DNA of 64,000 nt from Candidatus Enterousia sp. (GTDB taxonomy: Bacteria > Pseudomonadota > Alphaproteobacteria > Rs-D84), in contig JAZTWA010000020.1 of the NCBI GenBank assembly GCA_045635585.1, positions 2,426 to 66,425 on the forward strand, given 5' to 3'. Shown in pieces: positions 5,132 to 30,821 of this stretch. The position numbers and the translations under genes are program-made. A model generated the notes under the pieces. That model was not told the origin of the DNA. It saw only the letters and a list, made by a program, of their open reading frames with translations, and did not search any database. Numbering within the stretch: position 1 is the stretch's first letter; every line of letters begins with the position of its first letter.

Positions 5132-5180
5132 TCTGGCAGTTTAACATCATTTATTAATAGTTGCAAGATTTAATATAAAT

Positions 5181-5207
5181 AAAAAAATCCGCCACATGGA
5201 CGGATTT
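5181..5207 (-). terminator. Hairpin plus T-run between tRNA-Met and rnpB
   Basis: On the minus strand: AATCCG-tccatgtgg-CGGATT followed by TTTTTT. Confidence 0.6.
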
Positions 5208-5215
5208 TTAAACCT

Positions 5216-5292
5216 TGGTGGGTTAGGTAGGACTTGAACCCACGACCAAAGCGTTATGAGCGCTCCGCTCTAACCAACTGAGCTACTAACCC
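5216..5292 (-). tRNA. tRNA with CAU anticodon (elongator Met or lysidine-modified Ile2; not an initiator)
   Basis: Minus strand GGGTTAGTAGCTCAGTTGGTTAGAGCGGAGCGCTCATAACGCTTTGGTCGTGGGTTCAAGTCCTACCTAACCCACCA folds as a cloverleaf. The anticodon loop is CTCATAA, CCA is encoded, and the 1-72 pair is G-C. Confidence 0.9.
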
Positions 5293-5377
5293 ACGAGGCT
5301 ATATTATATATATTTTTCATTTCAATGCAAGATAAAAATTATTTTATTTTTGTCGGTCTTTGTGTAATGATACGCGT

Positions 5378-6649: not shown

Positions 6650-6656
6650 CATGTAT

Positions 6657-6688
6657 GAAAAAAACACCCCGATGCGGGGTGTTTTTTT
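6657..6688. terminator. Bidirectional intrinsic terminator between the convergent helicase and giant gene
   Basis: aaaaaaACACCCCGatgCGGGGTGTtttttttt: a perfect 9-bp stem flanked by an A-run and a T-run. Confidence 0.8.
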
Positions 6689-9600: not shown

Positions 9601-12600
9601 TTCAACATTACATGAAATTGGTGTATAATTTTCTATTTTACCACCATTGGGTATCAAATCGATTGGTTTATTGCCTTCTAAAACCCATACTGCTTCGAAT
9701 TCGATATTAGATGCTTGGTTCCAAACAATTGTTTGTCCGGCTTTGAAATTTTGACTAATGCCTTTCCAACCATCAAACACATAGCCAGCTTTTGTACAAT
9801 CTTGATTGTTTGCAAGTGTAAATTCTTCGTCATATGTTGCCGTATCGGATGCTGGTGCAGTACCTGTTGCACCCGTACCACAAGAATATGTAACAATATA
9901 TTCATTTGGGGTCCATTGGGCATACAAATCTATGACAGTGGCATCTGTTGATGTTAAATTTTTAACATTTGCGTTATTTGCATACGTTTCGCCTTGGCCA
10001 TCAATAGATGTGTTCCAACTATTGAATGAATAACCCGTTTTTTCGAATGTATTTGTATTCAACACTTGTTCTGTGTCATATGTAAATGACTGAGATGCCG
10101 TTTCATTACCAACAGTGTTCGAATAATACTTGATTGTATATGAAATTGGCTTCCATTGGGCATAAAGCATATATTTTTGCTCTGCTTCTGTTGTCCAATT
10201 ATCGACAACCGCTTCATCACTATAGTCGATTCCGCTGCCATCGCTTTCTGTGTTCCACCCTGTAAATCTGTAGCCAACCAATGTATACGCATTTTTTGGC
10301 AAATTCGACTTTTGATTATAATAATATTTATTTGGGTTCATTTGTTCGCCAGATACATTCGCAGTCGCGTTTTCAGGTTTGTTTTTGTTAAACGATACCG
10401 TCCAAACATTAGGTGTACAAGCGGCATTTACTGTTCCAGAGTTAATTGCTTCATATCCCAGTTTTGGTGTCACATCATACACAAGTCTTGACCAAGTATT
10501 GCCCTTAAAGTTTTGTGCTTGCGGAACCGCAGTTTCACAATTTTCTTTTTCAAACACCGTTGAATCAAACCAACAATCTGTATTTGCGCTACGTGGCAAT
10601 TCAGAACGATAGTTTCCGCTGCCCAAATAATGTGCCCCGGGTAACGTGCTACAATTTGTCTGGGTCAAATCCCCATCAGCAGAGAAATATCCGTTATCAA
10701 CTGGTATACATTCACTTGTATTTGTATTTCTATAATACCCTGCATTACAAGTCTTGACCGTTACAACACAATCCGTATCGTAAACAGCACTATCGCCTTT
10801 ACCACTGGTGTAATTACATGACTTGGTTGCTGTTCCATTTTCAATCAATGCAGGTATATCCGACAGATAACATTGGGTGATAGATGTCGATTGTTGCCCT
10901 TTTGTGTAACCAGAACGAGGACATTCGTTTTTAACACCGGCATCACACCACGCATTATATGGACATTCAATTATTTTTGTATGTGTAGAATTTGTGTAAT
11001 GACCCGTTGGTACTTCTTTACAATCCGTTGCGTTTGTTTCGTCTTGATATGTTGCGCCGCCACAGAAAGTACGTCCGTGTTCTTGTCCGTCGTATTCATA
11101 TTTTATGGATTCAGCAGGACATTTATAACCCTTTGGACAATCCGTACATGTTACAGAATCTTTTGGCAGATATTGTCTTGCAGGACATATTATCATTTTT
11201 TGTTTCCAATTAACTGTAAATGTTTGATCAGATAAATAGTCCCATACAATAGATTCACCAGAATCAAAAATGTTACCAATTTCATCAGTCCACCCGTCGG
11301 CTTCATATCCTTGTCTTTGACAAGTACTGATTGTATCAGCAAGTTCAAACGTACTGTTATACGAAATGCGTGTGGTAACAATTGGTGGTGTACCTGTTAC
11401 ATCGTTGGTATTGCCACAGGAATAAGTAATTTCATATTTATTTGGCACCCATTTTGCATATAAAGTTACATCTTCTAAATATGAGTTCGTACGCAAATTA
11501 TCGGTCAAAATCATACCCGTTTCGTTAATCATTTCAACCAATGTTCCACCAACCCCAGTCCAATATCCATCGAATTGGTAGCCATCACGACTTGGGACGT
11601 CAACATTAGTATATTCGCCACCCAATGTATGCCAGTTACCACTTGCGTCACTGACTTGGATTTCTGTTTCATATATAATTTGCAACGCACCTTCATTCAA
11701 AGTGCCATCACCATTATCCAATTTGATAGAATATATTTTTGGTGTCCACTGGGCTTCAAACGTTAATCCAGTGGTACATGTTCCCTGTTCTACTTTGTCA
11801 ACAATTCCGCCGGCACTGTTCAACCAACCTTTAAATTCGTATCCTGCTTTGACGATATCAGGTAACATAAACGTTGGTGTTATAACATTACAAGATTTTA
11901 CATAGTCAGCGGATATTATATTTCCACCTTTTGTATCATATGTAATTGTTTGTGCATTACCCGCAATCCAAGCAGCATACAAAGTAATATTATCTGTCTG
12001 TGCATATTTCCGCATAGACACACCGGTATTACTATAATATTGAACCTGATTTTCATCAAACCACCCGTTGAACTTGTATCCCGACCATGTTGGTACAGAT
12101 TCTAATTTTGGCATATCGTTATCGTATTTTACAGTAACATTTGCAGGATTTTGACCATCCGCACCATTTAAATCAAATGATATTGTATATTCAATCGGTA
12201 AACATGCAGATAATGTTACCTGTTTGCCGCCTTGTTGTGTTCCATCAGCACTATATCCTGTGTCACATACACATGACGCAGATGCCGCTTTATCCAATGT
12301 TGTAGAATGACTTGGACATGCTGTACACGAAGTTGTTTGCCCCCCTAAACTAAATGAGTCTTTTGGGCAACTAGAACAAGATGCATTTGTAGTATAATTA
12401 CCAATTACAATGTGTCCAGATTTTGCCAAAACTTCGTAAACAAAGGACTCCCAACCCGCTTGGGTATATGCAATCGGACTTACTGTGACACTGTTACACC
12501 CAGACAATTCAATTGAATCTTTTAATGTATATCTACAGTTAATTGCCGCGTTGCGTGGTGACACAGAAGAATATTCGCCACCCAAAATTGATGGTGAAGG

Positions 12601-15600
12601 TGTCAAATCTGCGCATTTATTTGCCGTTGACACATCACCATATGTAACGTAATGTTCTTCTTTATATTCGTCTTCGGCCACAGATACACATTGGGCTTTT
12701 GCAGTCTTGACATATGTACCACCCGCGCATAGGGCCACACATCCATTTTCAAAACTTGTTGCGTTACCATTTCTATAACCTTCTGGACATTGAACGCGTT
12801 CAATTGAATCCGCCGCAGACCAATAGCCCGTACCAACGGTTATACATGATTGAACATCCGCGTCCGCTTGATAATACGCAGCGTCACAATGTGTTACTTT
12901 TTGATTCACACAACCAGATGTATATTCTGCGCTATTACCGTCACCACTGGAATAATAACATTCTTGGGTTCCGCCACCATTTTTTGTTGTCCAAGTTGTT
13001 TGTTTGCGACATTGTGTTTTTTGTGTTGCACCTTCTATGCCGGTTGTACCGCCATTTGGACACGTATATGCGACACCATCGATACAGTATTTTCCCATTG
13101 GGCAAATTTCACATGTTTGATTATCTTTTTTATACTGATTTGCCTCACATGATGAACACTTTGTTTTGCCTTTTTCCATCGAAACTTCGTTTTGACCACT
13201 GCATTCAAATATACCCTGGGCCGCACCTGTGTATGTGTATGTTGTTTGGTTTGGACAATAAAATCCTGCTTCACACGTCGTGCATGTTTCAGAATTTTTT
13301 GGCAAATAATTTCCTGCACGACAGTTGAATGATTTTGGATTCCAACGTGCAGTTAACATTTTAGATTCTGTACATGTACCGCCGTATATATATGTGTATG
13401 CCATGCCGGATGCATCATACCAACCAACAAAGTTGTATCCAACACGAGTTGGGGTCGGTAATTCAATGTCTTCTGTTGTTTCTTGTGTGCAGAAAAATTG
13501 ATTTTCCGATAACGTTACATCTTCGCCAGGATTTAACTGTATAACAAATTGTCCGTCCTTGCCCCACAAAGCTGTAAATGTAACATTGATTGTATGATTC
13601 CATTCAAATGTTTGTATATCATCTGGCTTATATAATTTTACACCATCTGACCAACCCAAGAAATCATATCCATCATGCTTGCATGTGTTTTCTGGCAACG
13701 TAAATGTCTGGCCATATGTAATATTTTGTGTGGCAGGCACAACACTTGATGTATCGGCATCTGCGCCACAATTAAACGTTGCAGAATATGTTACCATACT
13801 GCATTCTTCAGTGGTTGTGGCTGTATTTCCATCAACCGTTCCACCCACAGTATAACCAATTGTACATTCACATGTAGAATCAGTGTTTCCTTTGGTTGTT
13901 GAACTGTTTGATGGACATGCAGAACATGTATTATCTGATAAATAATATCCCGCTGCACATGTTTTTAATGTACATGAATTTACGACCGCAGTTTTGCCTT
14001 CATCATACCACTGTGGGTTAATCCATTCATAAACAGATTCTGCATCAGGACATGCAAGGCATTGGGCATCGCCATTATTTGCGGTGTATGTGCCATTTGA
14101 ACACAATTGACATGTTGCACCTGCAACACTATAAGAACCCGCAGGACATGCAGCACACACGTTTTCTTGGTTTGGAACATATGTTGATGCGCCAAGTGAT
14201 GTTCCGGCCGCACAATTGTGTGCTTTATAGTAATAGAACGGTATTACATATTTTGAACCTTGTGTCACAGCTGTATCTTCGACCATGGTTTGATTTACAA
14301 CAATTGATTGGAATTGAATCAATTCAGTTGCATTGGAATCAGAAATATTCAATCCCAAAACGGCATTATTTAATGTTTGGTTCGGATCTAAAATAATTGT
14401 GATTGCACTTATAATTCTATTGTCGTTGGAAGGGTGGTCTAACTCCCATGCCACAGTACTATCATTTGTTACTTCTGCGGACGACCAAGAAATATACTTC
14501 CCAGTCTCTTGACCTTGAATTTCATACACACGCCCATTTGGGGCTAATAGAGTTACTTCAACACCCGCAATCTTGATTGGTGTATTGGACGATGTGGTTA
14601 AAACCAAATATTTATTATTTTTATAATCAAAAGTTTCTTTGGTTATATATTGACCAGCAGGTCTGTTGTAAACACATGCTGTTTCCAGTGTTCCATGAAT
14701 CAGAGTCGTACCTTCAAAGGAAACATTGGCGTTTTCACCACCATTAGGTAATGCAATCTTTGGGCACATATATAATTTTGACGTCTGACCATATTTTACA
14801 TATTCGTCCTGTGTCCAATATGTCTGATCTGTTTGATTAATCTGCATAATATCTTCTTTTTCACCGAATGGAACCAATATTTCGTACCCTGGGGAAACAC
14901 TCACTGCACAATCAGTGATGTTGACTGCATTTGTTGCCGAACGATAGAAATCTGGGCATTTTTCGCGACAGCCTTCGATATTATAATTGGTTTCACCAAT
15001 CCCTGGACAATACCACCCCTGTGGGCAATCTTGATGTTGTTGACCATCAAAATATTTTCCAGATTCACATGCCACAGGTGCACCAATATATTTTGCCGTT
15101 AATGTCAAATTTGCAGCTGTTTTGTAAATCAACGTTTGGTTTGCATCCGCATATTTTTCATTTTCGTTAATATACCAACCCATAAATTCATAATTTTCAT
15201 TTTGACATGTATTGGCCGCGGTTGTAAATTCGGAATTATATGTAACGGTCTGGGTTTCAATTGTTCCAGTGCCTTCACCACACGAATAAGACACAGTATA
15301 TGTTGCCGGTTCGCAAGATGCGGTTAGTTCCGTTTCATTTTTGTTCGATGTAATGAAGAATGATGTACTTCCATTGTTTATATATCCAGGATTGCAGATA
15401 AACTTGCACTGGAATTGATTTGCACCTAAATCTGTCGGTCTGGAGATACGATTTGTGTATACATTTTCGCCAGACACACATTGTGCAGCCGTCCAAACGA
15501 CATACAGTGTTACATTATCACCATTTGGCGATAAATCCTTGCCATCTGTACCCGCATCATAGCATGCACCCGTACCATCAGCATTTGTGCACCATTTTGT

Positions 15601-18516
15601 ACCTGCGATAGACACAGAGTCTGAACTATATTTGACGTATTGTGTTGGATCTGGCAACCAATTATTACATGTATCTTGACCAAAGACGCATTTAAATACT
15701 GAAATACTGTTGTTGTTATCATTCGGCATTAATGTAACAGTATATTGTTTTGCAGAATATATTGCAGTTAATTCTTTATTACCATCACACAAGATAGATG
15801 CATCTGCGGTTGCGTTTGTGTAATATTGCCTGCCGTTCATATCAACCCAATAATTAAAGGTATAACCATTTTTAATTGGAACATATTCAGACAAGTCAAC
15901 ACCATTATTGCGTACATTACATGAAAACACACTGGTTCCAATGGTGCCACCATCTGGGTTCAAAGTAATTGTTGCATCGCCCTGTTCTTTGTATTGTGCC
16001 ACAAATTTTACATCTGAATCTGTGTTCCATACAATATTTTCACCCGCCAAATATGTTGATGTGCCTGTTTCAGATTTCCAATTCAAAAATTCAAACATAT
16101 CTGGTGCGACACAAGAATTTTCCGGCATTTGATATGCCACACCATAGTCTATGGTAGTTGCCGCAGGCGCGGTTCCTGTACCGTTGCCACAATCAAATGT
16201 TATATTGTATGTCTTGGCAACACATGCATTTGTGGTTGTTGTGTTTGCGTCACCGTTTATATATCCGGTATCGCATGTACAGAATTGATTTGCGGTTCCT
16301 GTGTTATTTGAATATTCTGGACAGACGTTGCATTGTGTTGCAAAATTTGCGTTATCAGTAAATGTTCCAGCCGCACATGGTGAACATGTTGTGCCATCAA
16401 CAAAATATCCCGCCGCCGCCTTTAAGTCCTTTGCAACAGGTGTGGTGGACCAGTCGCTATTCGCGCTTTTCGACGGTGATTTTGTTAATGTACCAGATGT
16501 ACAAACATTTGCAATTGGACTGTTTGCAATTGTTGGGTTTGTTATCATTTGGCATTGTGAATATGCACCTAAACCATCGGCGTCGCTGATTTGCCATCCT
16601 GTTTCTGCACTGGGGCATGGGTTCTGGGTCGCACTGGTGGAATGTGCGGGACAATAGTACCCCGGCGAACATTTACCAGAACATGCAGATGTTGTTAAGC
16701 CGCGTGTTGCACCATAAGTACCCGCCGGACAGGGCTTTTGCTCGGTCGCCATTGGCGCATCTGTATAATATCCCAAATCAGTCAATGTACATGTTGGTGT
16801 TTCTGTACCCTGATAATATGTTTTTTCTGTACTGGAATATTCGCCCATTGCGCATGATTCGATTGTATATGGAACCAATGGCAAAGATATGCTTGTAAGT
16901 TCGTTAGACCCTATGACTGTGTCAAGTAACGTATATGTTGTTTTGTATGATCCGACGGTCAATTCAACCGCAGGCGGTCTAGTTCCTTTTGTGTATAATT
17001 CTATGCGTGACAAGTATCCATTTGGTATTTCTTCTGGCATAAAATAAATTTCCAGGGGGTTGCCTTCTTCAAAATACATATAATTTTCACGATTGTCGAA
17101 ATTAATATATAAATCTTGGGCATAATCTGTGTTATCTGTGTCGTTTTGTAGTACCATATGGTGAATAACACCGTTATGTGTACGTGGATCCAACATTATT
17201 TCTTCACCAGCTTCTGTCATCATATATATGCGTATGCCTGAAAGCCCAAAACTATTTCCGATTGATCTTAATGAAAAGGATTTAATATCTTTCCAAACAC
17301 GTTGTCCGTCTTGAACAATGTATGCACCTGCAGGCACTGTTGTTTGACACGCCGTTTCATATGATATGTGATTTGTGCCGGCGCGTCCCTGAAATGGTGT
17401 GCCTGCGCCATTCGCACGTGCATATGCCGCACAATAGTTAAGATTGGAAACAGCGCCATAATAAACCAAACTGGCCGATGTCCAGAAATTGTATGGTTTG
17501 TCTTTCCATCCGATTGCAGAATTTATTGGTTCACAAGACTTTCCGGATTCTATGACCGCATAACCAGCCGGACATACGATACATGATGTCCCCCATTTGT
17601 TGTTGTTTCTTATTTTATCAATAAAATCAACCAGATCTTCCCGTGAATTTGGGGCTGGTAAATTTTTATCAGAAAAATAATTAATAAATTCGTTTAAATC
17701 CGCAGGTTCGGTCATTGTACCGTATGTTCCTTGGACATAATTTGACCCAGAACACAATGCGAGATACGCATCAAACGTCAATTCAATACTGCCAATGCGT
17801 TCCCATTGGGCATACAAAGTTACGCTATCATCCGTTGTTAAATTACTGACCATTTCTTTATCAGAAAACAGAACATCATTAGCTGTTCTCCTCCAACCAG
17901 CAAATGCATATCCGTCACGCGTAAATTTGTTTGCCGGCAATTCGGACTTTGTGCCGTATGTATAAACCTCAGGGTCCATGGTCCCCGAACCACCGTTGGG
18001 ATTAAAATTAACCGTATATTGATTAGCATTCCATACCGCGTACAAGGTTATTTCTGTATCTGTGGTCAAATTTTTAACAGTTTGACCGGGGGTATATGAA
18101 GTTCCTGTGCCATTTGTTTTTGTATTCCAGTGTGAAAAGGTATAACCAGGGCGTATGGGGGTTTTTGTTGTTAAATTCTCTAAAGTCCCGTAAGTCATTG
18201 TTTGTGCCGATGGGACACCATATGAATCACTGCCATTTCCTGCATACTTTACAGTATATTGCTTGCCAGTGTATTGGGCATATAATACAAAATTACCACC
18301 ATTTGTTGCGACAAGGTTTAATACAGTTGATGCATCATCATAATGTGTGCCACTGCCATCGGCCGCAGTATTCCAACCGTTTGCATTATATCCATCAAGT
18401 GAAAATTCATTTGCTTTTAACACACAATCCGAACCATATGTACATGGTGTATCCGTTATGTCACCCGAACCACCATTGGCATCATATGTAACCGTATAGG
18501 TATTTTGAATACACAT
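6688..18516 (-). CDS. Giant Cys-rich mosaic surface/secreted protein, downstream 3942-codon part of a frameshifted ~4506-aa gene
   Basis: Uninterrupted 11.8-kb ORF. N-terminal Listeria-Bacteroides-type repeats (YTVTYDANGGSG...GYNANGW...LYAQY, nt ~17797-18501). Dozens of C..G.Y....C..CP.G.YC modules, further YxVxFxxNGG repeats, two Cys-free beta-sandwich-like inserts (~16867-17304 and ~14225-14650), and C-terminal EGF-like C..GY...C repeats (~6691-7400). It has no signal peptide of its own, and the frame stays open upstream of the listed Met. Confidence 0.85.
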   Translation of the reverse strand: MCIQNTYTVTYDANGGSGDITDTPCTYGSDCVLKANEFSLDGYNANGWNTAADGSGTHYDDASTVLNLVATNGGNFVLYAQYTGKQYTVKYAGNGSDSYGVPSAQTMTYGTLENLTTKTPIRPGYTFSHWNTKTNGTGTSYTPGQTVKNLTTDTEITLYAVWNANQYTVNFNPNGGSGTMDPEVYTYGTKSELPANKFTRDGYAFAGWRRTANDVLFSDKEMVSNLTTDDSVTLYAQWERIGSIELTFDAYLALCSGSNYVQGTYGTMTEPADLNEFINYFSDKNLPAPNSREDLVDFIDKIRNNNKWGTSCIVCPAGYAVIESGKSCEPINSAIGWKDKPYNFWTSASLVYYGAVSNLNYCAAYARANGAGTPFQGRAGTNHISYETACQTTVPAGAYIVQDGQRVWKDIKSFSLRSIGNSFGLSGIRIYMMTEAGEEIMLDPRTHNGVIHHMVLQNDTDNTDYAQDLYINFDNRENYMYFEEGNPLEIYFMPEEIPNGYLSRIELYTKGTRPPAVELTVGSYKTTYTLLDTVIGSNELTSISLPLVPYTIESCAMGEYSSTEKTYYQGTETPTCTLTDLGYYTDAPMATEQKPCPAGTYGATRGLTTSACSGKCSPGYYCPAHSTSATQNPCPSAETGWQISDADGLGAYSQCQMITNPTIANSPIANVCTSGTLTKSPSKSANSDWSTTPVAKDLKAAAGYFVDGTTCSPCAAGTFTDNANFATQCNVCPEYSNNTGTANQFCTCDTGYINGDANTTTTNACVAKTYNITFDCGNGTGTAPAATTIDYGVAYQMPENSCVAPDMFEFLNWKSETGTSTYLAGENIVWNTDSDVKFVAQYKEQGDATITLNPDGGTIGTSVFSCNVRNNGVDLSEYVPIKNGYTFNYWVDMNGRQYYTNATADASILCDGNKELTAIYSAKQYTVTLMPNDNNNSISVFKCVFGQDTCNNWLPDPTQYVKYSSDSVSIAGTKWCTNADGTGACYDAGTDGKDLSPNGDNVTLYVVWTAAQCVSGENVYTNRISRPTDLGANQFQCKFICNPGYINNGSTSFFITSNKNETELTASCEPATYTVSYSCGEGTGTIETQTVTYNSEFTTAANTCQNENYEFMGWYINENEKYADANQTLIYKTAANLTLTAKYIGAPVACESGKYFDGQQHQDCPQGWYCPGIGETNYNIEGCREKCPDFYRSATNAVNITDCAVSVSPGYEILVPFGEKEDIMQINQTDQTYWTQDEYVKYGQTSKLYMCPKIALPNGGENANVSFEGTTLIHGTLETACVYNRPAGQYITKETFDYKNNKYLVLTTSSNTPIKIAGVEVTLLAPNGRVYEIQGQETGKYISWSSAEVTNDSTVAWELDHPSNDNRIISAITIILDPNQTLNNAVLGLNISDSNATELIQFQSIVVNQTMVEDTAVTQGSKYVIPFYYYKAHNCAAGTSLGASTYVPNQENVCAACPAGSYSVAGATCQLCSNGTYTANNGDAQCLACPDAESVYEWINPQWYDEGKTAVVNSCTLKTCAAGYYLSDNTCSACPSNSSTTKGNTDSTCECTIGYTVGGTVDGNTATTTEECSMVTYSATFNCGADADTSSVVPATQNITYGQTFTLPENTCKHDGYDFLGWSDGVKLYKPDDIQTFEWNHTINVTFTALWGKDGQFVIQLNPGEDVTLSENQFFCTQETTEDIELPTPTRVGYNFVGWYDASGMAYTYIYGGTCTESKMLTARWNPKSFNCRAGNYLPKNSETCTTCEAGFYCPNQTTYTYTGAAQGIFECSGQNEVSMEKGKTKCSSCEANQYKKDNQTCEICPMGKYCIDGVAYTCPNGGTTGIEGATQKTQCRKQTTWTTKNGGGTQECYYSSGDGNSAEYTSGCVNQKVTHCDAAYYQADADVQSCITVGTGYWSAADSIERVQCPEGYRNGNATSFENGCVALCAGGTYVKTAKAQCVSVAEDEYKEEHYVTYGDVSTANKCADLTPSPSILGGEYSSVSPRNAAINCRYTLKDSIELSGCNSVTVSPIAYTQAGWESFVYEVLAKSGHIVIGNYTTNASCSSCPKDSFSLGGQTTSCTACPSHSTTLDKAASASCVCDTGYSADGTQQGGKQVTLSACLPIEYTISFDLNGADGQNPANVTVKYDNDMPKLESVPTWSGYKFNGWFDENQVQYYSNTGVSMRKYAQTDNITLYAAWIAGNAQTITYDTKGGNIISADYVKSCNVITPTFMLPDIVKAGYEFKGWLNSAGGIVDKVEQGTCTTGLTFEAQWTPKIYSIKLDNGDGTLNEGALQIIYETEIQVSDASGNWHTLGGEYTNVDVPSRDGYQFDGYWTGVGGTLVEMINETGMILTDNLRTNSYLEDVTLYAKWVPNKYEITYSCGNTNDVTGTPPIVTTRISYNSTFELADTISTCQRQGYEADGWTDEIGNIFDSGESIVWDYLSDQTFTVNWKQKMIICPARQYLPKDSVTCTDCPKGYKCPAESIKYEYDGQEHGRTFCGGATYQDETNATDCKEVPTGHYTNSTHTKIIECPYNAWCDAGVKNECPRSGYTKGQQSTSITQCYLSDIPALIENGTATKSCNYTSGKGDSAVYDTDCVVTVKTCNAGYYRNTNTSECIPVDNGYFSADGDLTQTNCSTLPGAHYLGSGNYRSELPRSANTDCWFDSTVFEKENCETAVPQAQNFKGNTWSRLVYDVTPKLGYEAINSGTVNAACTPNVWTVSFNKNKPENATANVSGEQMNPNKYYYNQKSNLPKNAYTLVGYRFTGWNTESDGSGIDYSDEAVVDNWTTEAEQKYMLYAQWKPISYTIKYYSNTVGNETASQSFTYDTEQVLNTNTFEKTGYSFNSWNTSIDGQGETYANNANVKNLTSTDATVIDLYAQWTPNEYIVTYSCGTGATGTAPASDTATYDEEFTLANNQDCTKAGYVFDGWKGISQNFKAGQTIVWNQASNIEFEAVWVLEGNKPIDLIPNGGKIENYTPISCNVESDPIELPIPSKTGYTFNGWLWNGNVVEYTDSAMCENGATLSAKWEANTYNVTYSCGDDVNGNAPDADSVKYDSVLTLPENAGTCKLQGYEFAGWTDMTNNAEYQKGAEIDYVFDFNKTFVATYQIKSIECAVGEYLPASAELCQPCDAGFKCPDTVKIYTYSTTDSQGATACSKANEYQPQTGQTSCKVIEGGYIKVSDTTLENCGKNHYCIAGKKTQCPDGGLTESETASQSRDCYKTDTSILNGTGTKKCYLSVTKYDLNCVVTDVLSCNSGYYKVGNNCKFVEKGYYSAKDELDRHACSELSGANPDGGTYSSVSPYATNTDCRYTAPNKAINGCATVEVQQVAYNGTTYPETTYVVTANTGYEAKDSGTSNPTCEPKTYNVGYKCDYGMELQNVSQHQFGSTITIESGDICERKYYTFSGWVASDGRAYNGGARYTLSEDTDVTFTAQWVSNAIECTAGTYYSGTGDRCTECPPKSFCNGSQTIFEKNSGKSEGIESCPSEYPNSIKGTKTKDNCYAVVEKSGKQLDVITPKNCSDVEKFMSCNPTTCTYNDYYGQEGETCDSATDCYPTATEVVADQGAYVDGNMCYTCPGKGDSVGGKNDKSDCFDSNIVCDVIEDGVKIGEGTQTCYYGTNAYTEKCSECTAFACGKGFVIDGDKCVPCPAGYVCDPKYDGGKPYTCTERTGGAYPYSDEGASSITGCYAKCEIRNVENGIITPVDTKAPYLQQCKYKTMTDHECEVVGNTCYEFKCRDGWEKVNGICQECDRENALSYKPGGNCVIESCVSGYHPEGQQCAEDVRSCEASNAIVATQTWDHKKGAFGVCIIQECVGGYHVERNICKQDDTTCALPHGIGEREWDESLGKWGDCIATECFPGYTNDPNLTDSMNYEQCGECNNKYDASGEQLVSSYVRECEIGACMFHGEKYWLENNECISICEDLDDETGTRRWNPETNKCDNICNPGYQSW

Positions 18517-20207
18517 TGTGCGGGCATTATTTGCATGTGTTCCTGTATCACATGTTTCACATGATGTTGCCCCGTATTTGGCGCAATTGATGTCGCATCA
18601 CAACTAGGGCACGAAGTGGTCCCAAATGTATTGGAATATGTTCCTGCTGCGCAACTTTGTTGGGCAATATTGCCAGTGGACGATGTATATTTTCCATAAT
18701 CTGTATATACAGGCAATGGATTTAAAATAATGCTTTCCGCGATTAATGAATCTCTGTTCAATATTTGTCTGTTATCAGTATGACTACGCATGCGTTCGTC
18801 AGAAAAAAGAACACCATCAGAATCAACCATATACAAAAATTCATATTCTGGCTGATACATACCTTCAGGAACAGGAACAATCTGACGCACAGCGGTCAAA
18901 TCATATGCACGGGCGACGCCATATAAAGCGTTATAGCTAAGATTTTTATTTGCCGCATAGACAACCCCCTCATAAGACCCACCTAAAACAAAAATCGTTA
19001 CATCACTGGCATTTAAATTGGCAGCCGCCATGGTATTCGAATAATGTAAAACAATCTTGTCAATTCTGCTGATAGGCTGTTTGAATTCAAAGGTTAACCG
19101 AGTCCCTGCAGGATATATCTTCGAATTGTTCGTGCCAGCAGGGTATGCATTTTCATCAAATAACACCCCGTTATTATAGATAAATTCTGGATCTTTGGCG
19201 TAGTATAATAAATCTGCTGTGGAAAAGCGGCCTGTTGTACCATCACTTTTTGAACCATAAATCTCTATTTCAGTTAATATAACATCTGCTTTATTTTGAT
19301 TTTCCAAGATTAAAGTTAATATTTTTAAGTTACTTAATGGGACTTTTCTAACCATATATCCCGCCATATTGGCGTCTTTACCAATATCGACCCCATCTTT
19401 ACCAAAGAATATGCCACATTTGTATTTAGAATCGTGCAATACCCCAGGATAATTTAAATGGGTCCCCCACACTTCATACCCCGTTGGATAAGTAGTTTCA
19501 CGATCAAGTGCGACAATTTGTGGGCATAAATCAACAACCTGTGCTTCATCAGACCAATTAACTTGATTATCTTTATAAAAAGGCTGTTCGGGTCCAATTA
19601 ATGGAACGCAACTATTATTATTCGCATCAAAATAATAACCCTTTTCACACACAATACATTCGCCAAATTCGTTACCGTTTTTTATCGCAACACCCCTGAT
19701 TCCATAACCATCGGCACGACATTCTTTTAAGATTAAACTTGAATTAGCTGGTGCATTCGAACAATTCATCCAAGTATTCAGTGGCAGCGACAAACAATCA
19801 TCCGTCAAGTACGTACTTTTTGTTAAATTCTGTGAACAGTCCAACAGACTTGCGGTCCTGTCTACACTGGTAGTACCGTACGGACATGCATATGCCCCGA
19901 TTACAGGAGCATCAAAATCTAGGGCACCTGGAACAAAAGAACCAACTTTATTTAGGTCTGCAGCAGAGAAACGGTATGCACCACCAGGACAATAATAACC
20001 CGCAGGACATCTTTCACATCCATGTCCAGCAACGGCAGCAAAACCAGCATCACAGACATATTCTATACCTGGCATACAGATATCCTGTCGCAAAATATTT
20101 TGTGGTGCATATGGTGCCGAACACGTCACCGCAAATGCGGATTGTGACGCAAATACAACCATAAACAACGTTGATAAAAAGCCCAGAATTCTGCTGATTT
20201 TCTTCAT
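18456..20207 (-). CDS. N-terminal 583-codon part of the same giant gene (signal peptide, Cys-rich modules, EIEIYG beta-sandwich module)
   Basis: MKKISRILGFLSTLFMVVFASQSAFA signal peptide; CERCPAGYYCPGG modules; ILTEIEIYGSK module (~18963-19361). After ...CPSCDATSIAPNTG the last ~37 residues turn nonsense-like, and the ORF overlaps the 3942-aa ORF by 61 nt. Confidence 0.8.
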   Translation of the reverse strand: MKKISRILGFLSTLFMVVFASQSAFAVTCSAPYAPQNILRQDICMPGIEYVCDAGFAAVAGHGCERCPAGYYCPGGAYRFSAADLNKVGSFVPGALDFDAPVIGAYACPYGTTSVDRTASLLDCSQNLTKSTYLTDDCLSLPLNTWMNCSNAPANSSLILKECRADGYGIRGVAIKNGNEFGECIVCEKGYYFDANNNSCVPLIGPEQPFYKDNQVNWSDEAQVVDLCPQIVALDRETTYPTGYEVWGTHLNYPGVLHDSKYKCGIFFGKDGVDIGKDANMAGYMVRKVPLSNLKILTLILENQNKADVILTEIEIYGSKSDGTTGRFSTADLLYYAKDPEFIYNNGVLFDENAYPAGTNNSKIYPAGTRLTFEFKQPISRIDKIVLHYSNTMAAANLNASDVTIFVLGGSYEGVVYAANKNLSYNALYGVARAYDLTAVRQIVPVPEGMYQPEYEFLYMVDSDGVLFSDERMRSHTDNRQILNRDSLIAESIILNPLPVYTDYGKYTSSTGNIAQQSCAAGTYSNTFGTTSCPSCDATSIAPNTGQHHVKHVIQEHMQIMPAQCVFKIPIRLHMMPMVVRVT

Positions 20208-20305
20208 ACACTTCCCCTCTTTGGTGTTTAGTGTAGAAAAATTTCATATGTATGTCTAGTAAAAACGTGTATATACAATGCAAATTTTTTATTTGACGGG
20301 TTTTT
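20208..20305 (-). promoter_or_regulatory. Conserved promoter/5'UTR block of the giant-protein family (copy 2)
   Basis: Plus-strand tatata at 20270-20275 and tttgac at 20292-20297. The spacing (16 nt) and the distance to the ATG (63 nt) are the same as in copy 1, and the sequence is close to identical to 1591-1688. Confidence 0.5.
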
Positions 20306-20341
20306 GAAATGTTAAAAATTGAATTAATTCAACCTGCTTAT

Positions 20342-20370
20342 AAAAAGACCACCGAACCGGGGTCTTTTTA
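20342..20370 (-). terminator. Intrinsic terminator after the 3337-aa gene
   Basis: On the minus strand: GACCCCGG-tt-CGGTGGTC (imperfect stem) followed by TTTTTAT, just 3' of the stop at 20375. Confidence 0.55.
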
Positions 20371-20374
20371 TTAG

Positions 20375-23300
20375 TTACATCCAGTCATCAACAACCGAAT
20401 ATTCTTTGTTGTTATATTTTACCCTAAGTGTTTCTTCTTCGATGAACAGATGATTTGCCAATGTCGATTCCGCGGCGCCGGCCCCAATCTGTACCACCAA
20501 ATATGGAGCAACAGCTTCAATCGTTGCAGATGGTGTACTCTGTGGCGATGTACGAACAACGCCTTGTAACTGCTGGCTTGCAGGACTTGGGTTGTCTGTA
20601 AAGCCCCAGCGGAATATTGTACCAACAACACTTGAACTTGTAGTATCAAATGTCAATGTATACTTTTTACCTACTTCTACTGGATAAACCACAGAATAAC
20701 TATCACTTGATTCGACCCATGCGTTACTTGCGTTAATCCATGCAGAAATACGTTCTGGATCTGTCATAAATGCCTTACGGTTTGTTTCTGACATGTTACC
20801 ATATAACGTCAATCCACCAACATTTGCATGGAACGCAGGTGCCGTTCGTTTGCCACTGCGCAGGAAGATTGTTGAGCCACCCGCGTGCAGTTTACGTCCG
20901 CAATCGTCGGCTTCGTTCGCCCCATAACCATAACCAATTGTAGTTAAACCGGTTGTACATGCGTGACGTTTGGAAGTTTCTGTTTGGGCAACGTCGCCGC
21001 CAGTGCCCCAGAAACCCGCACCAACGTTTATACATTTTCCACCCGCGGTTTCAACATACGAACCCGCCGGACATGATACTACACACGATTTGATGCCTGC
21101 ATGCTGACTATATTCGTTGCCGCTGTTACCGTATCCATCTTCGGTATCACATGCCGTACATGCGGATGCGCCCGCATCAGAATATGTATTCGATGCACAT
21201 ACAGTGATGCCACCTGTTTTATCGGCATATATCTTGGTACCACCCGCACAATATCCACCAGCAACACAGTCTGTTAAGCCCGCACCAGCCGTTTCAACAT
21301 ATTTGCCCGCAGTTGTTGATAAATAACATGCGTTTACAGATGTTGCAGATGTGCCACCATCAGAATTTGGATATGGGTTTACACATGAAGTTTGGCCCAA
21401 CGTGGCGTTGTATGTACCAGAACTGCACAATGGCATCGCATCCAAACCAGAACAGTAATGATCCTTTGGACATGCCGCAGCATCACTGTACAACATCGCG
21501 CGTTTTGGATTATTAACGATATCATCACACCATGTTGCACTTAAACGTTCTGTGAAGTAGTACCCCGGATTTAATGTATCATAGAACAAATCACCACCGA
21601 TATCATACTTGCCGTTGCTGCTGTTATATGTTGTGCCATCAACCAAGAACTGACCATATTTATTGGTAAATTCGTATGTTACCGCACATTCTGTTATCTT
21701 GGTTAATCCGGTTAAATCGGACTTGTTTTCAACAAAAACAAGTGTTGGATTGTGATACTTTTCAGGATACGTTACACGTTTATGTGATTCTGCATCTGGA
21801 CATTTTTCATTACCACCAACATTATCCCAATACAGAGTGCCACCTGGGCAATAATATGTACCAGAACATGTTGTTTGAACTTCGTCTGCTTTAGTCTGGA
21901 TATAATGTCCAGCAACAACTTTTGCATAACAATCCGTATCTTGGGTTGCCCCAGATGCACTGTGTGAATACAAACCACCACCTAATTTGCTGCATGCGGT
22001 TTGTACAGTTGAACCCGCCGGACAGTAATTACCCGCAACACATGTTGAACATGTCGATGTTTGTGGATAATTTAATGTATGTTTGCCCAAATATGTACCG
22101 CCCGCACATTCTGTTGTGGACGTATCAGTCGATTTACCAAGGTATGCGCCGCTGATTTCATCAGTATAACAATCTTCGGCTTCGTCTGATTTTGCTGGAC
22201 TGTTTTTATACAATCCGCCACCCAATGTTGAACATGCCGTACGCCCACCCACAGAACCATAGTGAACATCAATACCACCAGTACAATAACCGTTTGCAGC
22301 ACAATCTGATTCTGTTTGATCTCCCACGGTCTGGATATACTTTTTGGACGTTGTTGTGCCATAACACGCCGTATCCGTTTTTGCGCCAGCAAGTGATTTT
22401 GTATAGAACGAACCCAATGTTGAACAAGATGTTTCAGCAGATGAACCCGCCACACAATAATTACCCGCCGTACAGGTATCGCATGTTGATGTATCACCGT
22501 AATGCACGCTGTGATTACCTTTGAATGTTCCAGCCGCACATTGTGTTGAGGTCGCATCATTTGGCTTGGCAATGTATGCGCCACTGATTGTGTTGGTATA
22601 GCATGCAGATGCACCACCGGTGTTGCCCACCACAGAGTTTGGATAGCCGCTTGGACATGCAGTACATGTTGTGCCGGCATCATAGAAGCCCGCTTGTGCA
22701 CTTACAGCTTTTACGGTCTTGGTACATGATTCTGCATTGGTTTCACAGCCAGATTTTACAGTACCGTCGCCTGTACCCGCTGAATTTGCATATGCTGTAT
22801 AATCACAGGCAGCAACAGAACATGCATTCCAGTCCGTTACAGCTGAACAATTTGTTGGTATCGCACCATCTAGCTGACTGCCGGTCCATGGGCGCTGTTT
22901 CGTGTTACTGAAACATGCGGTTACACCACCAGTGTTGCCCACCACAGAGTTTGGATAGCCGCTTGGACATGCGTCACAGGTTTGACCATTTACATAGTTG
23001 TTTGCCTTGGCCGTTAATGCCGTTGTTACGGTTGGGTCGTTCCAGCTGGTACTGTCTTTGGCGGTTTTGGTTAATTTACCCGCACTGCAGTTGCCCAATG
23101 GTGTACCACCGTACGATACATCGGTCATCGCCGTACATTGTGTTACATCGGTAAGCCCATCTGGCCCGTCGTAATACCAACCATCCCCGGCCGCTGGACA
23201 TGATGAACATGTGGATGTGTCACCCAATACAACTGTTGTTGTGCCTTGGTATGTTCCGGAATCACAATCGATGGATTCGCCGTTCAGAACAACCATGGTT

Positions 23301-26300
23301 GGTGTAGAGACACCCACTTTTGTATAATTTTCTTCATAAAATACAGGTATCCAGTCACCATACATACCACCCAATACGTATATTCCAAGGCTATCAAATA
23401 TGGGGGTAAGTGTATTAAACATTATTGAACCAATTTCATAACTGCCACCCAATTCAAATACGAATTCACCGTCCGCAGATGCAGTTGGTTTTTGCCCCGC
23501 AGGCATACTAAAATTACCATCGGTGGCACCAGCACAGTTAGCGCCAACAGAACAATTTTTGCCGGCCAATATATTTGTCCCCGTACCATCGTGTGATTCA
23601 AATGCCTGGATTTCATTCAGCATAAAATTCAACGTAGTGCCGCTTGGAATGCCAACGATTTTGATTTTGGACGCCGGGATTGTGTTTTGTTCGATGTATT
23701 GGCCCGATATAGTGGTTGTACAATCACGTGCGGCATCGTGCGCAGATGCGGTTGTGCCATTTGATGTATAGCCTGTCATACAATAGTCCACAGCTGATAT
23801 TGAACCATAATTGACATCTTGTGCCGCTGATGTGAACCAATTTCCCGCCGGTGATGTGCATTGTTCGCCCGCAGATACAACGCGCTGACCCGCAGAACAT
23901 GTGGTTTTACATGATGATTCGCCCGCGTGTGCCGTTGCAGTATCACCAGAATTACCGTATTCTGATGGGCATGCTGTGCATGATGTCGCGCCAGTCACAG
24001 AATACTGATTGTCACCACAAACAGAACATGAAGATGTCGAACCATAGTTCACAGTATGGTCGCCCTTGAATGTGCCGGACGCACAGCTGGTTGTGCTGCT
24101 TGCATTTGCAGTGGCAATGTATGCACCACTGATTGTGTTGGTATAGCATGCAGATGCACCACCGGTGTTGTCCGCCGCAGAGTTTGGATAAAAACCACCC
24201 GCCAAGCCAGAACACGCTGAACATCGTGTACCATTTACATAGTTATTCGATTTGGCCTTTAATGCCGTTGATACGGTTGGGTCCTTCCAGTGGGTGCTGT
24301 CCAATGCGGTTGCGGACAATGCGCCCGCGCTGCAGCTGGACAATGGTGTGCCACTGGTCGATGTTGTGGTTACCATTTTACATTCCGCCCAAGACCCCAG
24401 ACCAGTTGCAGTGTCATACTTCCAACCGTCGACAGGTGCAGGACATGAATCACATGTTTCCAATGTGTTGGCAAAATATTGCCGATCGCTTTCTTTGTAT
24501 GTGCCCGCACCGCAGGCTTTTGGGGCGGTTACATACAGTGGGAAACGGAATGTCGCACCCAACACCGGCATATTATCGCCCGCTTCCCCGGTTTGTTCGC
24601 CCGTTCTGATTAAGCTACGCGCAGTTTCAGCAGCATCTTCAACCATTACACGTATACGAGCCTCTCTGGAATCTTTTTCTGTTACCGGAATGATTTCGAT
24701 ATGTGACAGTGCAGGATCTTTAATATCCGTATTATTACGGATCGCACCATACAAACCACCGGAATCAATGTCGATTCTTATTCTATCACCAGATTCAAGC
24801 CAGACCGCATCTATAACATCACCATCAAGCAATGACATTGTCGGAACCACATGGCCATCGGCATCCAGAATAGTCATAAATCTGTCAACCATTTCTGCGG
24901 GTAACTGCGTGGTGCTGATTTCAAAGCTGCCCGCGTCCAATGCATCCGCCAATTCCAAGAAATAGAAGCGTATTTCGGCAATTTCTATAAAGGAGGAAGT
25001 ATCAGCAAATACTTCGATACGCCCTGGTATAGGATATCTTACGGGGCGCGATTGATATATGCCGCCGGATGGTGTAATTGGTGCAATACACGCGTGTTGC
25101 GATGAATCATGCGGCATGTTGGGGGTTGGTGCAAAATTACCAATCAAGCCATTAGTCATCGTTTTATCACCTGCAACATTATTAATTGTTGAACAGAAGT
25201 TCATTGGTGATACAGACTGATAATATACAGAATGTTCGTCCGTCCATGCAGATGCAACCAAATTGTTGCCGATTGTGTCCAAATTAACCGGTGCGGCCAT
25301 TGGTGTTAAAACCGCGCCACCCGCATGAACGTTGACATAACAATCGCGTATAGAATCTGAGCCAAGTTCACTGAACGGGTAATTGCCTTCTGTTTCTTTG
25401 TCACAAGAAAATCCCCCATTAGCAGAACCATAATTGACCTTTTCTGATGGACAGTATTCACCCGTTGGACATTCTGTTTCGTCCTTGTCTTCTTTGTCGG
25501 CAATATATTTGCCCGGTGTTGTGTTCAAATAACATGCAGATACACCACCGGTGTTGCCCGCCGCAGAGTTTGAATACGGCGCAGGACATACATCACATGA
25601 CGATGTGCCAGATACATAATTACCCGCCGTTGCCGTTACAGATGCGATTGTTTTTGTACAACTTGACGCGGTACATGTTTCATCGGTTGCACCGTTATAG
25701 TCGCGATATGTACATGACCCAGGTGTACATGCATTATATGTTGCATTTGAACAGCGGTCAGGTATGTCAGGATTCAACTGGGCACCGGTTTTGGTTTTTG
25801 ATACATAGCAATATTTTTCATCGGATGTACCAACATCAGAATTTGGATATGCCGTCGGACATGATGAACATGTTAATGTTGATGTCAATGCCAAAGCTGT
25901 ATTGCCCGCACGATATGTGTTTGCGGCACATGAACGTGGAATATCAGACACAACAACCGTATTGATAATTATCTGATCTATATAGCTGTCGCTGGTTTCG
26001 ATATCTGTTGGTTGCATCACAGGTATCCAATTGTTTGGTTCGTCCGCCGTTGCAACAAATATTTGAACATTTTTATATGTTTCACGATATCCATAGTCAA
26101 CAGAGAATACGAATGAACCAATTTCTTGGTTTGCCCCCATGTCAAACAGGATGCTGCCCTGTTGTCCCTGTTCAAAACTTATATAAGTGTCACTGACGTC
26201 GAAATAGCCATCTGTGGCACCATAACCGACTTCATATGCTTCTTCCCCATTTATATCAGGAATACCGAATGCCAGCAACCCATCCAATAAATTGGTGCCG

Positions 26301-30388: not shown

Positions 30389-30500
30389 TCTTTCCCACTT
30401 TCGTTGTATATATACAGTTGTAGTGTAGAAAACTTTCCGTATATCGCGCAAGCAAAAAGATGTATATACAAGGCACTTTTTTTATTTGACAGGTTTTGGC
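30389..30500 (-). promoter_or_regulatory. Conserved promoter/5'UTR block of the giant-protein family (copy 3, more diverged)
   Basis: Plus-strand tatata at 30463-30468 and tttgac at 30485-30490 (16-nt spacing). It shares gtgtagaaaa and tgtatatacaa.gca.ttttttatttgac.ggtttt with copies 1 and 2. Confidence 0.45.
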
Positions 30501-30524
30501 GCAGAATTGTGGGATTTTTTTCTT

Positions 30525-30763
30525 TTGTCATTGCGATGGGAGTTTTAACGACCGACGCAATCCAGATAGTGTGTATGCTGATTACTGGATTGCCACGCTT
30601 CGCTCGCAATGACAAAGGTGTTACTGGATTGCTTCGCTGCGCTCGCAATGACAAGGAGTGTAAAGTGTTTTTCCTTTGTCATTGCGATGGGAGTGTAACG
30701 ACCGACGCAATCCAGATGGTGTGGATGATTACTGGATTGCTTCGCTGCGCTCGCAATGACAAG
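30525..30763. repeat. Cluster of palindromic intergenic repeat units (same family as 1712-1874)
   Basis: Two copies of ttgtcattgcgatgggag.gtaacgaccgacgcaatccagat, each followed by ~20 nt and then one or two inverse units actggattgc..cgct.cgctcgcaatgacaa. Confidence 0.85.
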
Positions 30764-30821
30764 GGGAGATAATTTTTATTATGGATTTATTTGTGTCGCA
30801 TATGGTATGCTGGGGCTTGAT

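What the first reader, a model, noticed from the sequence alone, without database searches (positions are those of the whole stretch)
18456..18620. One-nucleotide frameshift at a G4 (plus-strand C4) tract splits a ~4506-aa gene
Seen in sequence. The 583-aa ORF reads ...CPSCDATSIAPNTG and then turns into nonsense-like sequence (QHHVKHVIQEHMQIMPAQ...) before stopping at 18456. In the frame of the 3942-aa ORF, the sequence upstream of its first Met reads ...GATSCETCDTGTHANNARTMCIQNTYTVTYDANGG, which is a perfect continuation of the Cys-module pattern. That frame is closed by TAG/TGA only upstream of ~18610. Adding one G to the run acGGGGca (plus-strand cccc at 18570-18573) fuses the two ORFs as ...SIAPNTGATSCETCDTG... 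for a total of 546+18+3942 = 4506 aa. The 3942-aa ORF has no signal peptide or SD of its own.

Inference. The cause could be a homopolymer sequencing or assembly error, a recent pseudogenising mutation, or a short slippery tract giving on/off switching or low-level frameshifting.
Basis: seen in the sequence. Interest (0 to 1): 0.65.

Follow-up and report, generated by a model that had tools for sequence, protein, structure and literature searches.

The report
One missing G splits giant gene
A 4,506-codon surface-protein gene of an uncultured ruminant-gut bacterium (Candidatus Enterousia) is cut in two in this assembly by the loss of one G from a run of five; nine other public samples have all five G's and an intact gene, so this is an ordinary private frameshift or consensus error, not a genetic switch.

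Summary
On the minus strand, ORF 18456-20207 (583 aa) and ORF 6688-18516 (3942 aa) are two pieces of one gene. Adding one G to the G4 run (plus-strand C4, 18570-18573) gives an uninterrupted 4506-aa protein: Sec signal peptide, Cys-rich modules, an orphan beta-rich domain, then Cys-rich modules and 13 Listeria-Bacteroides (Flg_new) repeats.

Contigs spanning the tract were found in nine public gut metagenome runs from eight studies. Their identity to the window runs from 100% to about 88-91%. All nine carry the extra base (G5), and the junction peptide with its cysteine pattern is conserved. Every other indel seen inside the gene in related strains is a multiple of three. No indexed run holds the G4 allele.

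The downstream 11.9-kb frame has no stop, so the break is either very recent or not real. The tract is one of about 60 homopolymers of 5 nt or more in the gene. There is no slippery heptamer and no downstream RNA structure.

Verdict: one gene with a private, unprogrammed 1-nt loss. A recent null allele (about 0.5) and a consensus error (about 0.35) cannot be separated without the source reads. Phase variation is unlikely. Interest is low.

The parts
20268..20300 (-). Conserved promoter-like box (CCCGTCAAATAAAAAATTTGCATTGTATATACA). It lies 61-93 nt upstream of the start codon and is shared with two other giant Cys-rich genes in the window.
   Evidence: The pattern occurs 3 times in the window (1651-1683, 20268-20300, 30461-30493, all minus strand), against 0 expected by chance. 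Alignment of the three 5' regions is. Promoter function is inferred, not shown.
20211..20220 (-). Shine-Dalgarno region AGAGGGGAAG, 3 nt before the ATG at 20207-20205.
   Evidence: Read directly from the sequence.
20130..20207 (-). Start codon and Sec-type signal peptide MKKISRILGFLSTLFMVVFASQSAFA (26 aa).
   Evidence: Translation. It matches the signal peptide of the paralogue at 1..1590 at 24 of 25 aligned positions. The cleavage site is inferred from the AFA motif.
18570..20207 (-). 5' part of the gene in its true frame (codons 1-546): signal peptide, Cys-rich modules, an orphan beta-rich domain of about 300 aa, then Cys modules.
   Evidence: Pfam gives only a weak DUF4215 Cys-repeat hit. 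No homologue of the domain was found in 1.84 billion representative proteins apart from the window's own protein.
18570..18573 (-). The G4 run (plus-strand C4) where one G is missing relative to all related sequences. Codons are ACG GGG in the window and ACG GGG GCA in relatives.
   Evidence: Sequence. 'Put in behind 18569: C' is reported in every spanning contig of X2 and X3, X6 and X7, X10, X13, X17 and X20 and X41.
18456..18569 (-). Out-of-frame tail of the truncated product: 37 nonsense codons and the TAA stop at 18458-18456.
6688..18570 (-). 3' part of the gene, in the frame reached by restoring one G: 3960 codons plus the TAA stop at 6690-6688. It contains 13 Flg_new (Listeria-Bacteroides) repeats, Ephrin_rec_like-type Cys modules and a Cys-rich C-terminus ending ...NPGYQSW.
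   Evidence: In related strains every indel in this stretch is a multiple of 3.
18514..18516 (-). First ATG of the downstream ORF as called mechanically. It has no SD and no signal peptide, so it is unlikely to be a real start.
6658..6689 (.). Bidirectional intrinsic terminator (A7, stem CACCCCG-ATG-CGGGGTG, T8) immediately after the stop codon.
   Evidence: Read. The A and T runs differ in length by 1 nt in X3 and X7.

Best explanation
ORFs 18456-20207 and 6688-18516 are one gene. It encodes a 4506-aa protein with a Sec signal peptide that is rich in cysteine modules and Listeria-Bacteroides repeats. By inference this is a giant cell-surface or adhesin-like protein of a reduced-genome Candidatus Enterousia, an alphaproteobacterium of order Rs-D84 from the ruminant gut.

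In the lineage sampled here, one G has been lost from a G5 run (ACG GGG GCA became ACG GGG CA), most likely by ordinary replication slippage. Translation therefore ends 37 codons later. The result is a secreted 583-aa stub. The remaining 3960 codons have no start signals or signal peptide and are left untranslated.

The lesion is private to this sequence and very recent. It is a null allele, possibly still polymorphic, of a strain-variable and dispensable surface gene. It is not a programmed device.

Shown: it is a single gene; all other samples have G5; relatives keep the frame; there are no secondary lesions. Inferred: the missing base is absent in the cells rather than only in the consensus; the protein's surface or adhesin role.
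For: - Restoring one G gives a 4506-codon ORF.
- Nine of nine spanning contigs from nine samples in eight studies carry the extra C at 18569. Three of them are near-identical to the window: X3 has 0 mismatches in 306 nt, X2 has 2 in 348 and X41 has 2 in 116. The others are lineages about 5-12% divergent.
- The junction peptide and its cysteines are conserved in the fused frame in X6 and X7.
- Inside the CDS, all other indels against related strains are +6, +3, +18, +3 and -15 nt. The other 1-nt indels listed all lie in intergenic DNA.
- The gene has its own SD and signal peptide and a conserved upstream box. The downstream ORF has none.
- No other gene in the 64-kb window is split. LysS, Tgt, RNase J, MtaB, S4 and Era match their profiles end to end. 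This argues against an assembly riddled with homopolymer errors and so somewhat favours a real allele.
- Several runs share the housekeeping DNA but lack this locus, so the gene is strain-variable and presumably dispensable.
Against: - The reads behind this assembly could not be examined. No indexed run holds the window fully (maximum share 0.61 and 0.56).
- No run holds more than 1 of the 4 sampled words of the G4-allele 64-mer. The G4 allele has therefore no independent confirmation anywhere.
- A single homopolymer undercall in 64 kb is within the residual error of polished long-read assemblies.
- The complete absence of secondary damage in 11.9 kb is equally what an artefact would give.
Confidence: 0.5

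Rival explanations
1. Consensus or assembly artefact. The organism has G5 and an intact 4506-aa gene. One G was dropped from the homopolymer during base-calling, polishing or assembly.
For: - Every independent sequence of the site has G5, including contigs identical to the window on both sides of the tract.
- The G4 allele is absent from all indexed runs.
- The downstream frame is flawless for 3960 codons.
- The only other 1-nt differences from the near-identical X3 strain are also in homopolymers: the A7 and T8 runs of the terminator at 6658-6689.
Against: - No other frameshift is seen in the window, although it has hundreds of runs of 5 nt or more, up to A9 and T8.
- By general knowledge, short-read assemblers rarely create indels in 5-nt runs. 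The sequencing platform is unknown.
Confidence: 0.36
2. Phase variation. The short G tract is a contingency locus that switches the giant surface protein on (G5) and off (G4) by slipped-strand mispairing.
For: - The tract lies early in the gene, at codon 546 of 4506.
- The gene encodes a variable surface protein.
- It belongs to a small family with a shared 5' cassette, as in some antigenic-variation systems.
- The G5 run is retained in three diverged lineages.
Against: - By general knowledge of contingency loci, a run of 4-5 G is far below the length at which tracts become hypermutable (about 7-8 or more).
- Nine of nine other samples are G5, with no second length seen. Contigs would, however, hide minor variants.
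- The gene contains 61 runs of 5 nt or more, including a G6 and eleven A6, so this run is not special.
- Retention of G5 is largely explained by the Gly-Ala codons GGG GCA.
Confidence: 0.07
3. Recoding. Full-length protein is still made from the G4 allele. This could be by -1 ribosomal slippage of tRNA-Gly on G GGG (which would yield exactly ...NTGATSC...) or by transcriptional slippage that adds a G.
For: A -1 shift of the P-site tRNA from GGG to the overlapping GGG is geometrically possible and would restore the conserved junction (reading).
Against: - There is no X XXY YYZ heptamer.
- The 111 nt that begin at the tract fold no better than shuffled sequence (z = -0.26).
- Relatives encode the junction in frame, so the frameshift configuration is not conserved.
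- By general knowledge, transcriptional slippage needs much longer runs.
Confidence: 0.03
4. Two genuinely separate genes: a 583-aa secreted protein and a 3942-aa protein.
For: Only the mechanical ORF calls.
Against: - The downstream ORF has no SD or signal peptide.
- The 37-codon tail of the upstream ORF is out-of-frame nonsense over a conserved Cys module.
- All relatives have a fused gene.
Confidence: 0.01

Closest known systems
Ordinary homopolymer frameshift: an 'interrupted gene' or recent pseudogene in a bacterial genome or MAG, or a homopolymer undercall in an assembly
   Same: There is a single-base length change in a short mononucleotide run. Two abutting ORFs together match an intact gene in close relatives. 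There is no secondary decay.
   Different: Nothing differs in kind. The only unusual point is the size of the gene hit: 13.5 kb, roughly 1.5% of a genome of about 0.9 Mb.
Contingency loci: phase-variable poly-G/C tracts in surface-protein genes of Neisseria, Haemophilus, Campylobacter and Helicobacter (from general knowledge)
   Same: A G/C run inside the 5' part of a surface-protein gene, whose length decides whether the protein is made.
   Different: Known tracts are usually 7-8 nt or longer and are visibly polymorphic. Here the run is 4-5 nt and is invariant (G5) in nine other samples. It is no longer than dozens of other runs in the same gene.
Programmed -1 ribosomal frameshifting (for example dnaX or IS elements) and transcriptional slippage rescue in endosymbionts (from general knowledge)
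   Same: A -1 shift at the G run would produce the full-length protein.
   Different: There is no slippery heptamer, no stimulatory structure and no conservation of the shifted arrangement. The run is too short for RNA polymerase slippage.
Giant repeat-rich bacterial surface proteins with Listeria-Bacteroides (Flg_new, PF09479) repeats. A preprint on giant genes in metagenome-derived bacteria (10.1101/2023.11.21.568195) mentions this repeat once according to search counts; it was not read in detail.
   Same: The protein is multi-thousand-residue and secreted. It is built from Flg_new repeats (13 stretches, E = 6.6e-94) and Cys-rich modules, in a bacterium thought to depend on partner cells (PMC12306168).
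   Different: The N-terminal domain of about 300 aa has no detectable homologue outside this genome. The export and anchoring route beyond Sec is unknown. The gene belongs to a local family of at least three genes that share a promoter, 5' UTR and signal-peptide cassette.

Membership tests
Phase-variable contingency locus (homopolymeric tract) | The tract is long enough to be hypermutable (about 7-8 nt or more for G/C runs) | tested here: not met
   The run is G4 in the window and G5 in all relatives.
Phase-variable contingency locus (homopolymeric tract) | Tract length is polymorphic within and between populations | tested here: inconclusive
   Nine of nine other samples are G5 and only the window is G4. 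Only assembled contigs were available, not raw reads, so minor variants are invisible. No run holds the G4 words.
Phase-variable contingency locus (homopolymeric tract) | The tract stands out from the background of the gene or genome | tested here: not met
   The gene has 61 homopolymer runs of 5 nt or more, including a G6 at 12345 and eleven A6.
Programmed -1 ribosomal frameshift site | Slippery heptamer X XXY YYZ in the zero frame | tested here: not met
   The zero frame reads ACG GGG CAA. Only single-tRNA slippage on G GGG is possible.
Programmed -1 ribosomal frameshift site | Stimulatory RNA structure a few nucleotides downstream | tested here: not met
   MFE is -23.6 kcal/mol against a shuffle mean of -22.8 (z = -0.26) for 18580-18470.
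Programmed -1 ribosomal frameshift site | The two-frame arrangement is conserved in relatives | tested here: not met
   Relatives are in one frame.
Listeria-Bacteroides repeat (Flg_new, PF09479 / TIGR02543) proteins | Significant matches to the repeat profile above the curated cut-off | tested here: met
   PF09479 scores 308.5 bits (cut-off 27) over 13 stretches. TIGR02543 scores 125.4 bits (cut-off 20.95).
Ephrin_rec_like / GCC2_GCC3-type Cys-rich repeat (PF07699) | Match above the gathering score | tested here: met
   24.1 bits against a cut-off of 23.1, one stretch. This is marginal. The many other CxxC modules are too diverged to score.
Old, decaying pseudogene | Several disabling lesions, and loss of frame conservation relative to relatives | tested here: not met
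   There is a single lesion. 3960 downstream codons are open. All other indels against relatives are multiples of 3.

The most novel reading that the evidence does not exclude
The G4/G5 run is a genuine low-frequency slippage switch. It turns off one member of a family of giant, secreted, Cys-rich proteins that share a promoter, 5' UTR and signal-peptide cassette. This would give a reduced-genome, partner-dependent gut alphaproteobacterium a form of surface variation that uses unusually short tracts, perhaps because of weakened mismatch repair.
Probability: 0.06. Interest if true: 0.5.

Novelty: already known. Interest (0 to 1): 0.2.

Why it matters
The main value is for annotation. The two ORFs should be recorded as one 4506-aa gene, flagged as frameshifted or possibly a sequencing error, not as two hypothetical proteins. 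Split calls like this hide giant genes from protein catalogues. Here the only database entry for the gene's N-terminal part is the truncated 583-aa stub from this window.

If the G4 allele is real, it is a natural knock-out. It would show that a protein taking up about 1.5% of a roughly 0.9-Mb genome is dispensable in at least one host population. That fits its patchy presence among strains.

The more interesting biology lies around the lesion. At least three very large secreted Cys-rich or Flg_new proteins sit behind a shared 5' cassette, in an organism proposed to live as an obligate symbiont or parasite (PMC12306168).

Tried and rejected
**Looking for the source reads**
- No indexed run holds the window fully.
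- No RNA runs hold the gene.
- All runs are kept as assembled contigs, so no pile-ups or minor-variant frequencies were possible.
- The last read-laying run, on 40001-60000, was meant to count homopolymer discrepancies in housekeeping genes.

**Looking for orthologues**
- Exact-protein look-up found nothing on record.
- Two word-indexed protein searches returned only the window's own stub, or nothing.
- A full phmmer scan of 1.84 billion representatives returned only the stub itself plus weak Cys-module hits.
- Peptide-pattern and DNA-pattern scans of GTDB genomes and JGI metagenomes gave 0 hits, including a pattern that allowed either C4 or C5.
- The 5' cassette pattern also gave 0 hits in genome contigs.

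**Structure and annotation of the orphan N-terminal domain**
- AlphaFold2 on aa 200-510 without an alignment gave pLDDT 43. The model is unusable, so no fold search was run.
- A PDB sequence search gave nothing below E = 0.2.

**Other checks**
- The promoter scan was no better than shuffles.
- A frameshift-stimulating RNA structure was rejected.
- A noisy assembly with many frameshifts was rejected. Suspicious overlapping ORF pairs (50910-51962, 62781-64000, 1-1937, 39489-39932 and others) turned out to be complete genes plus spurious ORFs.
- An apparent 'joint' 18050>20129 in an X7 contig has only 24 letters on its shorter side. It is probably a misplacement caused by the cassette that other family members share, and was not pursued.

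Full report
**1. The observation**

The minus strand carries ORF 18456..20207 (583 aa, ATG) and ORF 6688..18516 (3942 aa, ATG). The coding strand around the site reads CCA AAT ACG GGG CAA CAT CAT GTG. The four G's are at 18573-18570.

The upstream ORF reads ...CPSCDATSIAPNTG. It then runs through 37 codons unlike anything else in the protein and stops at 18458-18456. The frame of the downstream ORF is already open from 18597. There it reads CDINCAKYGATSCETCDTGTHANNARTMCIQNTYTVTYDANGG, a clean continuation of the Cys module.

Adding one G to the run gives a single ORF of 4506 codons with the junction ...SIAPNTGATSCETCDTG...; by coordinates this is 546 + 3960 codons. That includes the lack of a Shine-Dalgarno sequence or signal peptide for the 3942-aa ORF: the upstream sequence is GCAAATAATGCCCGCACA-ATG and the N-terminus is MCIQNTY.

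**2. What the gene is**

The gene has its own expression signals:
- The intrinsic terminator of the preceding gene lies at about 20340-20372.
- There is a conserved upstream box.
- The SD is AGAGGGGAAG, three bases before the ATG at 20207.
- The signal peptide is a classical Sec type, MKKISRILGFLSTLFMVVFASQSAFA.

After the signal peptide come Cys-rich modules and a beta-rich region of about 300 aa. That region has no detectable homologue in 1.84 billion representative proteins, apart from the window's own stub.

Downstream of the break, Pfam finds 13 Listeria-Bacteroides repeats (Flg_new, 308.5 bits) and an Ephrin_rec_like Cys-rich module. NCBIfam agrees. Cysteine-rich stretches alternate with Thr/Asn-rich repeat stretches to the end, which reads ...NPGYQSW. 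The gene finishes at a bidirectional terminator at 6658-6689.

The adjacent gene, 20375..30451, is a second protein of the same kind. Its real start is probably the ATG at 30388 (MFKFLRIFAILL...).

The organism is a Candidatus Enterousia (Alphaproteobacteria, order Rs-D84):
- LysS is up to 94% identical to ruminant-gut MAGs of that name.
- One complete relative is 958,618 bp.
- The literature describes genomes under 1 Mb and a probable obligate symbiont or parasite lifestyle (PMC12306168).

A giant secreted repeat protein in such an organism is most simply a surface or attachment protein. That is an inference, not a tested function.

**3. What related sequences say about the tract**

The window is not fully present in any indexed public run. 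Partial matches occur in gut and bovine-gut metagenomes. Laying the contigs of those runs on the site gave nine runs with a contig across the tract:

| Run | Mismatches / nt aligned |
|---|---|
| X3 | 0 / 306 |
| X2 | 2 / 348 |
| X41 | 2 / 116 |
| X6 | 14 / 261 |
| X7 | 32 / 351 |
| X10 | 16 / 203 |
| X13 | 9 / 119 |
| X17 | 14 / 118 |
| X20 | 9 / 95 |

All nine carry one extra C after 18569, which is G5 on the coding strand. They come from nine samples in eight studies.

Rebuilding the junction of the X6 and X7 lineages from the listed substitutions gives open fused frames. X7 reads ...SCDATSIAQNPGARSCTTCDTGTHANPTRTECIPNTYKVTYDANGG and X6 reads ...SIALDPGATSCKTCDTG.... Every cysteine is conserved, with amino-acid changes between them.

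Over the whole gene (6600-20400), the indels of related strains inside the CDS are +6, +3, +18, +3 and -15 nt. The only indel that is not a multiple of three is the tract itself. All the other 1-nt indels listed are intergenic.

A query made of the 64 nt around the G4 allele found no run holding more than one of its four sampled words.

The gene is therefore a single, selected reading frame in the population. The G4 state is private to this sequence.

**4. Error, mutation or device?**

*Old pseudogene.* This is excluded. The 3960 downstream codons are free of stops or further frameshifts.

*Programmed frameshift.* This is not supported. There is no X XXY YYZ heptamer. The 111 nt that begin at the tract fold no better than shuffled sequence (z = -0.26). 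Relatives encode the junction in frame.

*Phase variation.* This is not supported.
- The run is 4-5 nt.
- The gene contains 61 runs of 5 nt or more, including a G6 and eleven A6.
- No second length was seen in nine other samples. Contigs cannot, however, show minor variants.

That leaves a very recent real deletion or a consensus error.

- For a real allele: nothing else in the 64-kb window is frameshifted. LysS, Tgt, RNase J, MtaB, a DacA-like protein, S4, Era and a NUDIX protein are all complete. This holds despite hundreds of runs of 5 nt or more, up to 9 nt. By general knowledge, short-read assemblers seldom invent indels in 5-nt runs.
- For an error: the allele has no independent confirmation. 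The flanks are identical to G5 contigs. The other 1-nt differences from the closest strain are also in homopolymers, the A7 and T8 runs of the terminator.

I put a real recent null allele at about 0.5, an artefact at about 0.36, phase variation at about 0.07, and recoding or two genes at 0.04 or less together. Only the source reads can decide.

**5. Consequence if the allele is real**

The cell would secrete a 583-aa stub: signal peptide, N-terminal Cys modules, the orphan domain and a 37-residue nonsense tail.

The remaining 88% of the protein would not be made. Its first ATG (18516) has no SD and lies 58 nt upstream of the stub's stop. A cytoplasmic product with many cysteines and no signal peptide would be useless anyway.

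Loss may be tolerated. Several runs share about 30-50% of the sampled words of the housekeeping region but contain nothing of this locus beyond the generic Flg_new motif. The gene is therefore strain-variable.

**6. Comparison with known things, and novelty**

This is the familiar case of a homopolymer frameshift that interrupts a gene intact in close relatives. It resembles a contingency locus only superficially, and it fails the defining tests of tract length and distinctiveness. It fails all three tests for programmed -1 frameshifting.

The protein is a bona fide Flg_new-repeat protein, with marginal Ephrin_rec_like Cys modules. As a phenomenon the finding is already known, so interest is low (0.2).

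The practical outcome is an annotation correction: one gene of 4506 aa, frameshifted or possibly mis-assembled.

**7. Things that led nowhere**

These are listed under Tried and rejected. In brief:
- No orthologue of the N-terminal domain was found in any protein or contig collection.
- The structure prediction was unusable.
- No RNA data were available.

Noticed in passing
window 1512-1688, 20129-20305 and 30421-30497 (all minus strand): Three large secreted Cys-rich genes share a 5' cassette. The segment holding the promoter-like box, 5' UTR, SD and signal peptide of the 4506-aa gene recurs at 89% nt identity (178 nt) in front of the ORF at 1..1590. That ORF runs off the window; its signal peptide matches at 24 of 25 aligned positions, while the mature part is only 25-40% identical. 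The upstream half of the cassette recurs at 79% identity in front of the 3358-aa neighbour. A 33-nt box, CCNGTCAAATAAAAAANNTGCNTTGTATATACA, occurs exactly 3 times, against 0 expected by chance. In other metagenomes, contigs follow the cassette and then diverge right after the signal peptide (loose ends at 20131). This suggests further family members, or cassette-mediated exchange.
   Followed up: partly
window 6688-30451 (minus strand): Two adjacent giant genes (4506 aa and about 3337 aa counted from the ATG at 30388) occupy about 23.7 kb. That is roughly 2.5% of a genome expected to be about 0.9-1 Mb. A third family member starts at 1590.
   Followed up: partly
window 30514-30780: There are tandem GC-rich units of about 150 nt, partly palindromic, between the 3358-aa gene and the FAD-binding enzyme gene. 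The core is TTACTGGATTGCTTCGCTGCGCTCGCAATGACAAGG and its inverse TTTGTCATTGCGATGGGAGT. They look like a REP/MITE-like intergenic repeat. An X7 contig carries a similar sequence (GATTACTGGATTGCCGCGCTGCGCTC) upstream of the 4506-aa gene, at 20302.
   Followed up: partly
window 18400-18750, in runs X23-X27: Runs that hold 30-52% of the sampled words of the housekeeping region 42001-52000 have no contig on this locus, apart from the generic Flg_new motif at 18462-18505. The giant gene is therefore present in some strains and absent or replaced in others.
   Followed up: partly
window 35783-39511 (minus strand): An operon encodes a B12-binding radical SAM protein (527 aa), a radical SAM/SPASM maturase-like protein (396 aa) and a 318-aa ORF. 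This looks like a peptide-modification (RiPP-like) cassette, which is unexpected in a strongly reduced genome. No precursor peptide was looked for.
   Followed up: no
window 6658-6689: The bidirectional terminator after the giant gene has A7 and T8 arms. Their lengths differ by one base in the near-identical X3 strain, and the A-run site also differs in X7. Homopolymer length differences between these sequences are thus not confined to the G tract.
   Followed up: partly
window 5360-6649 (plus strand) and 4794-5292: A 429-aa RecD2/TraA-like SF1B helicase ORF converges on the end of the giant gene. Its matches cover only the helicase part of the relaxase and RecD2 profiles. RNase P RNA (class A) and a tRNA lie just upstream.
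   Followed up: no
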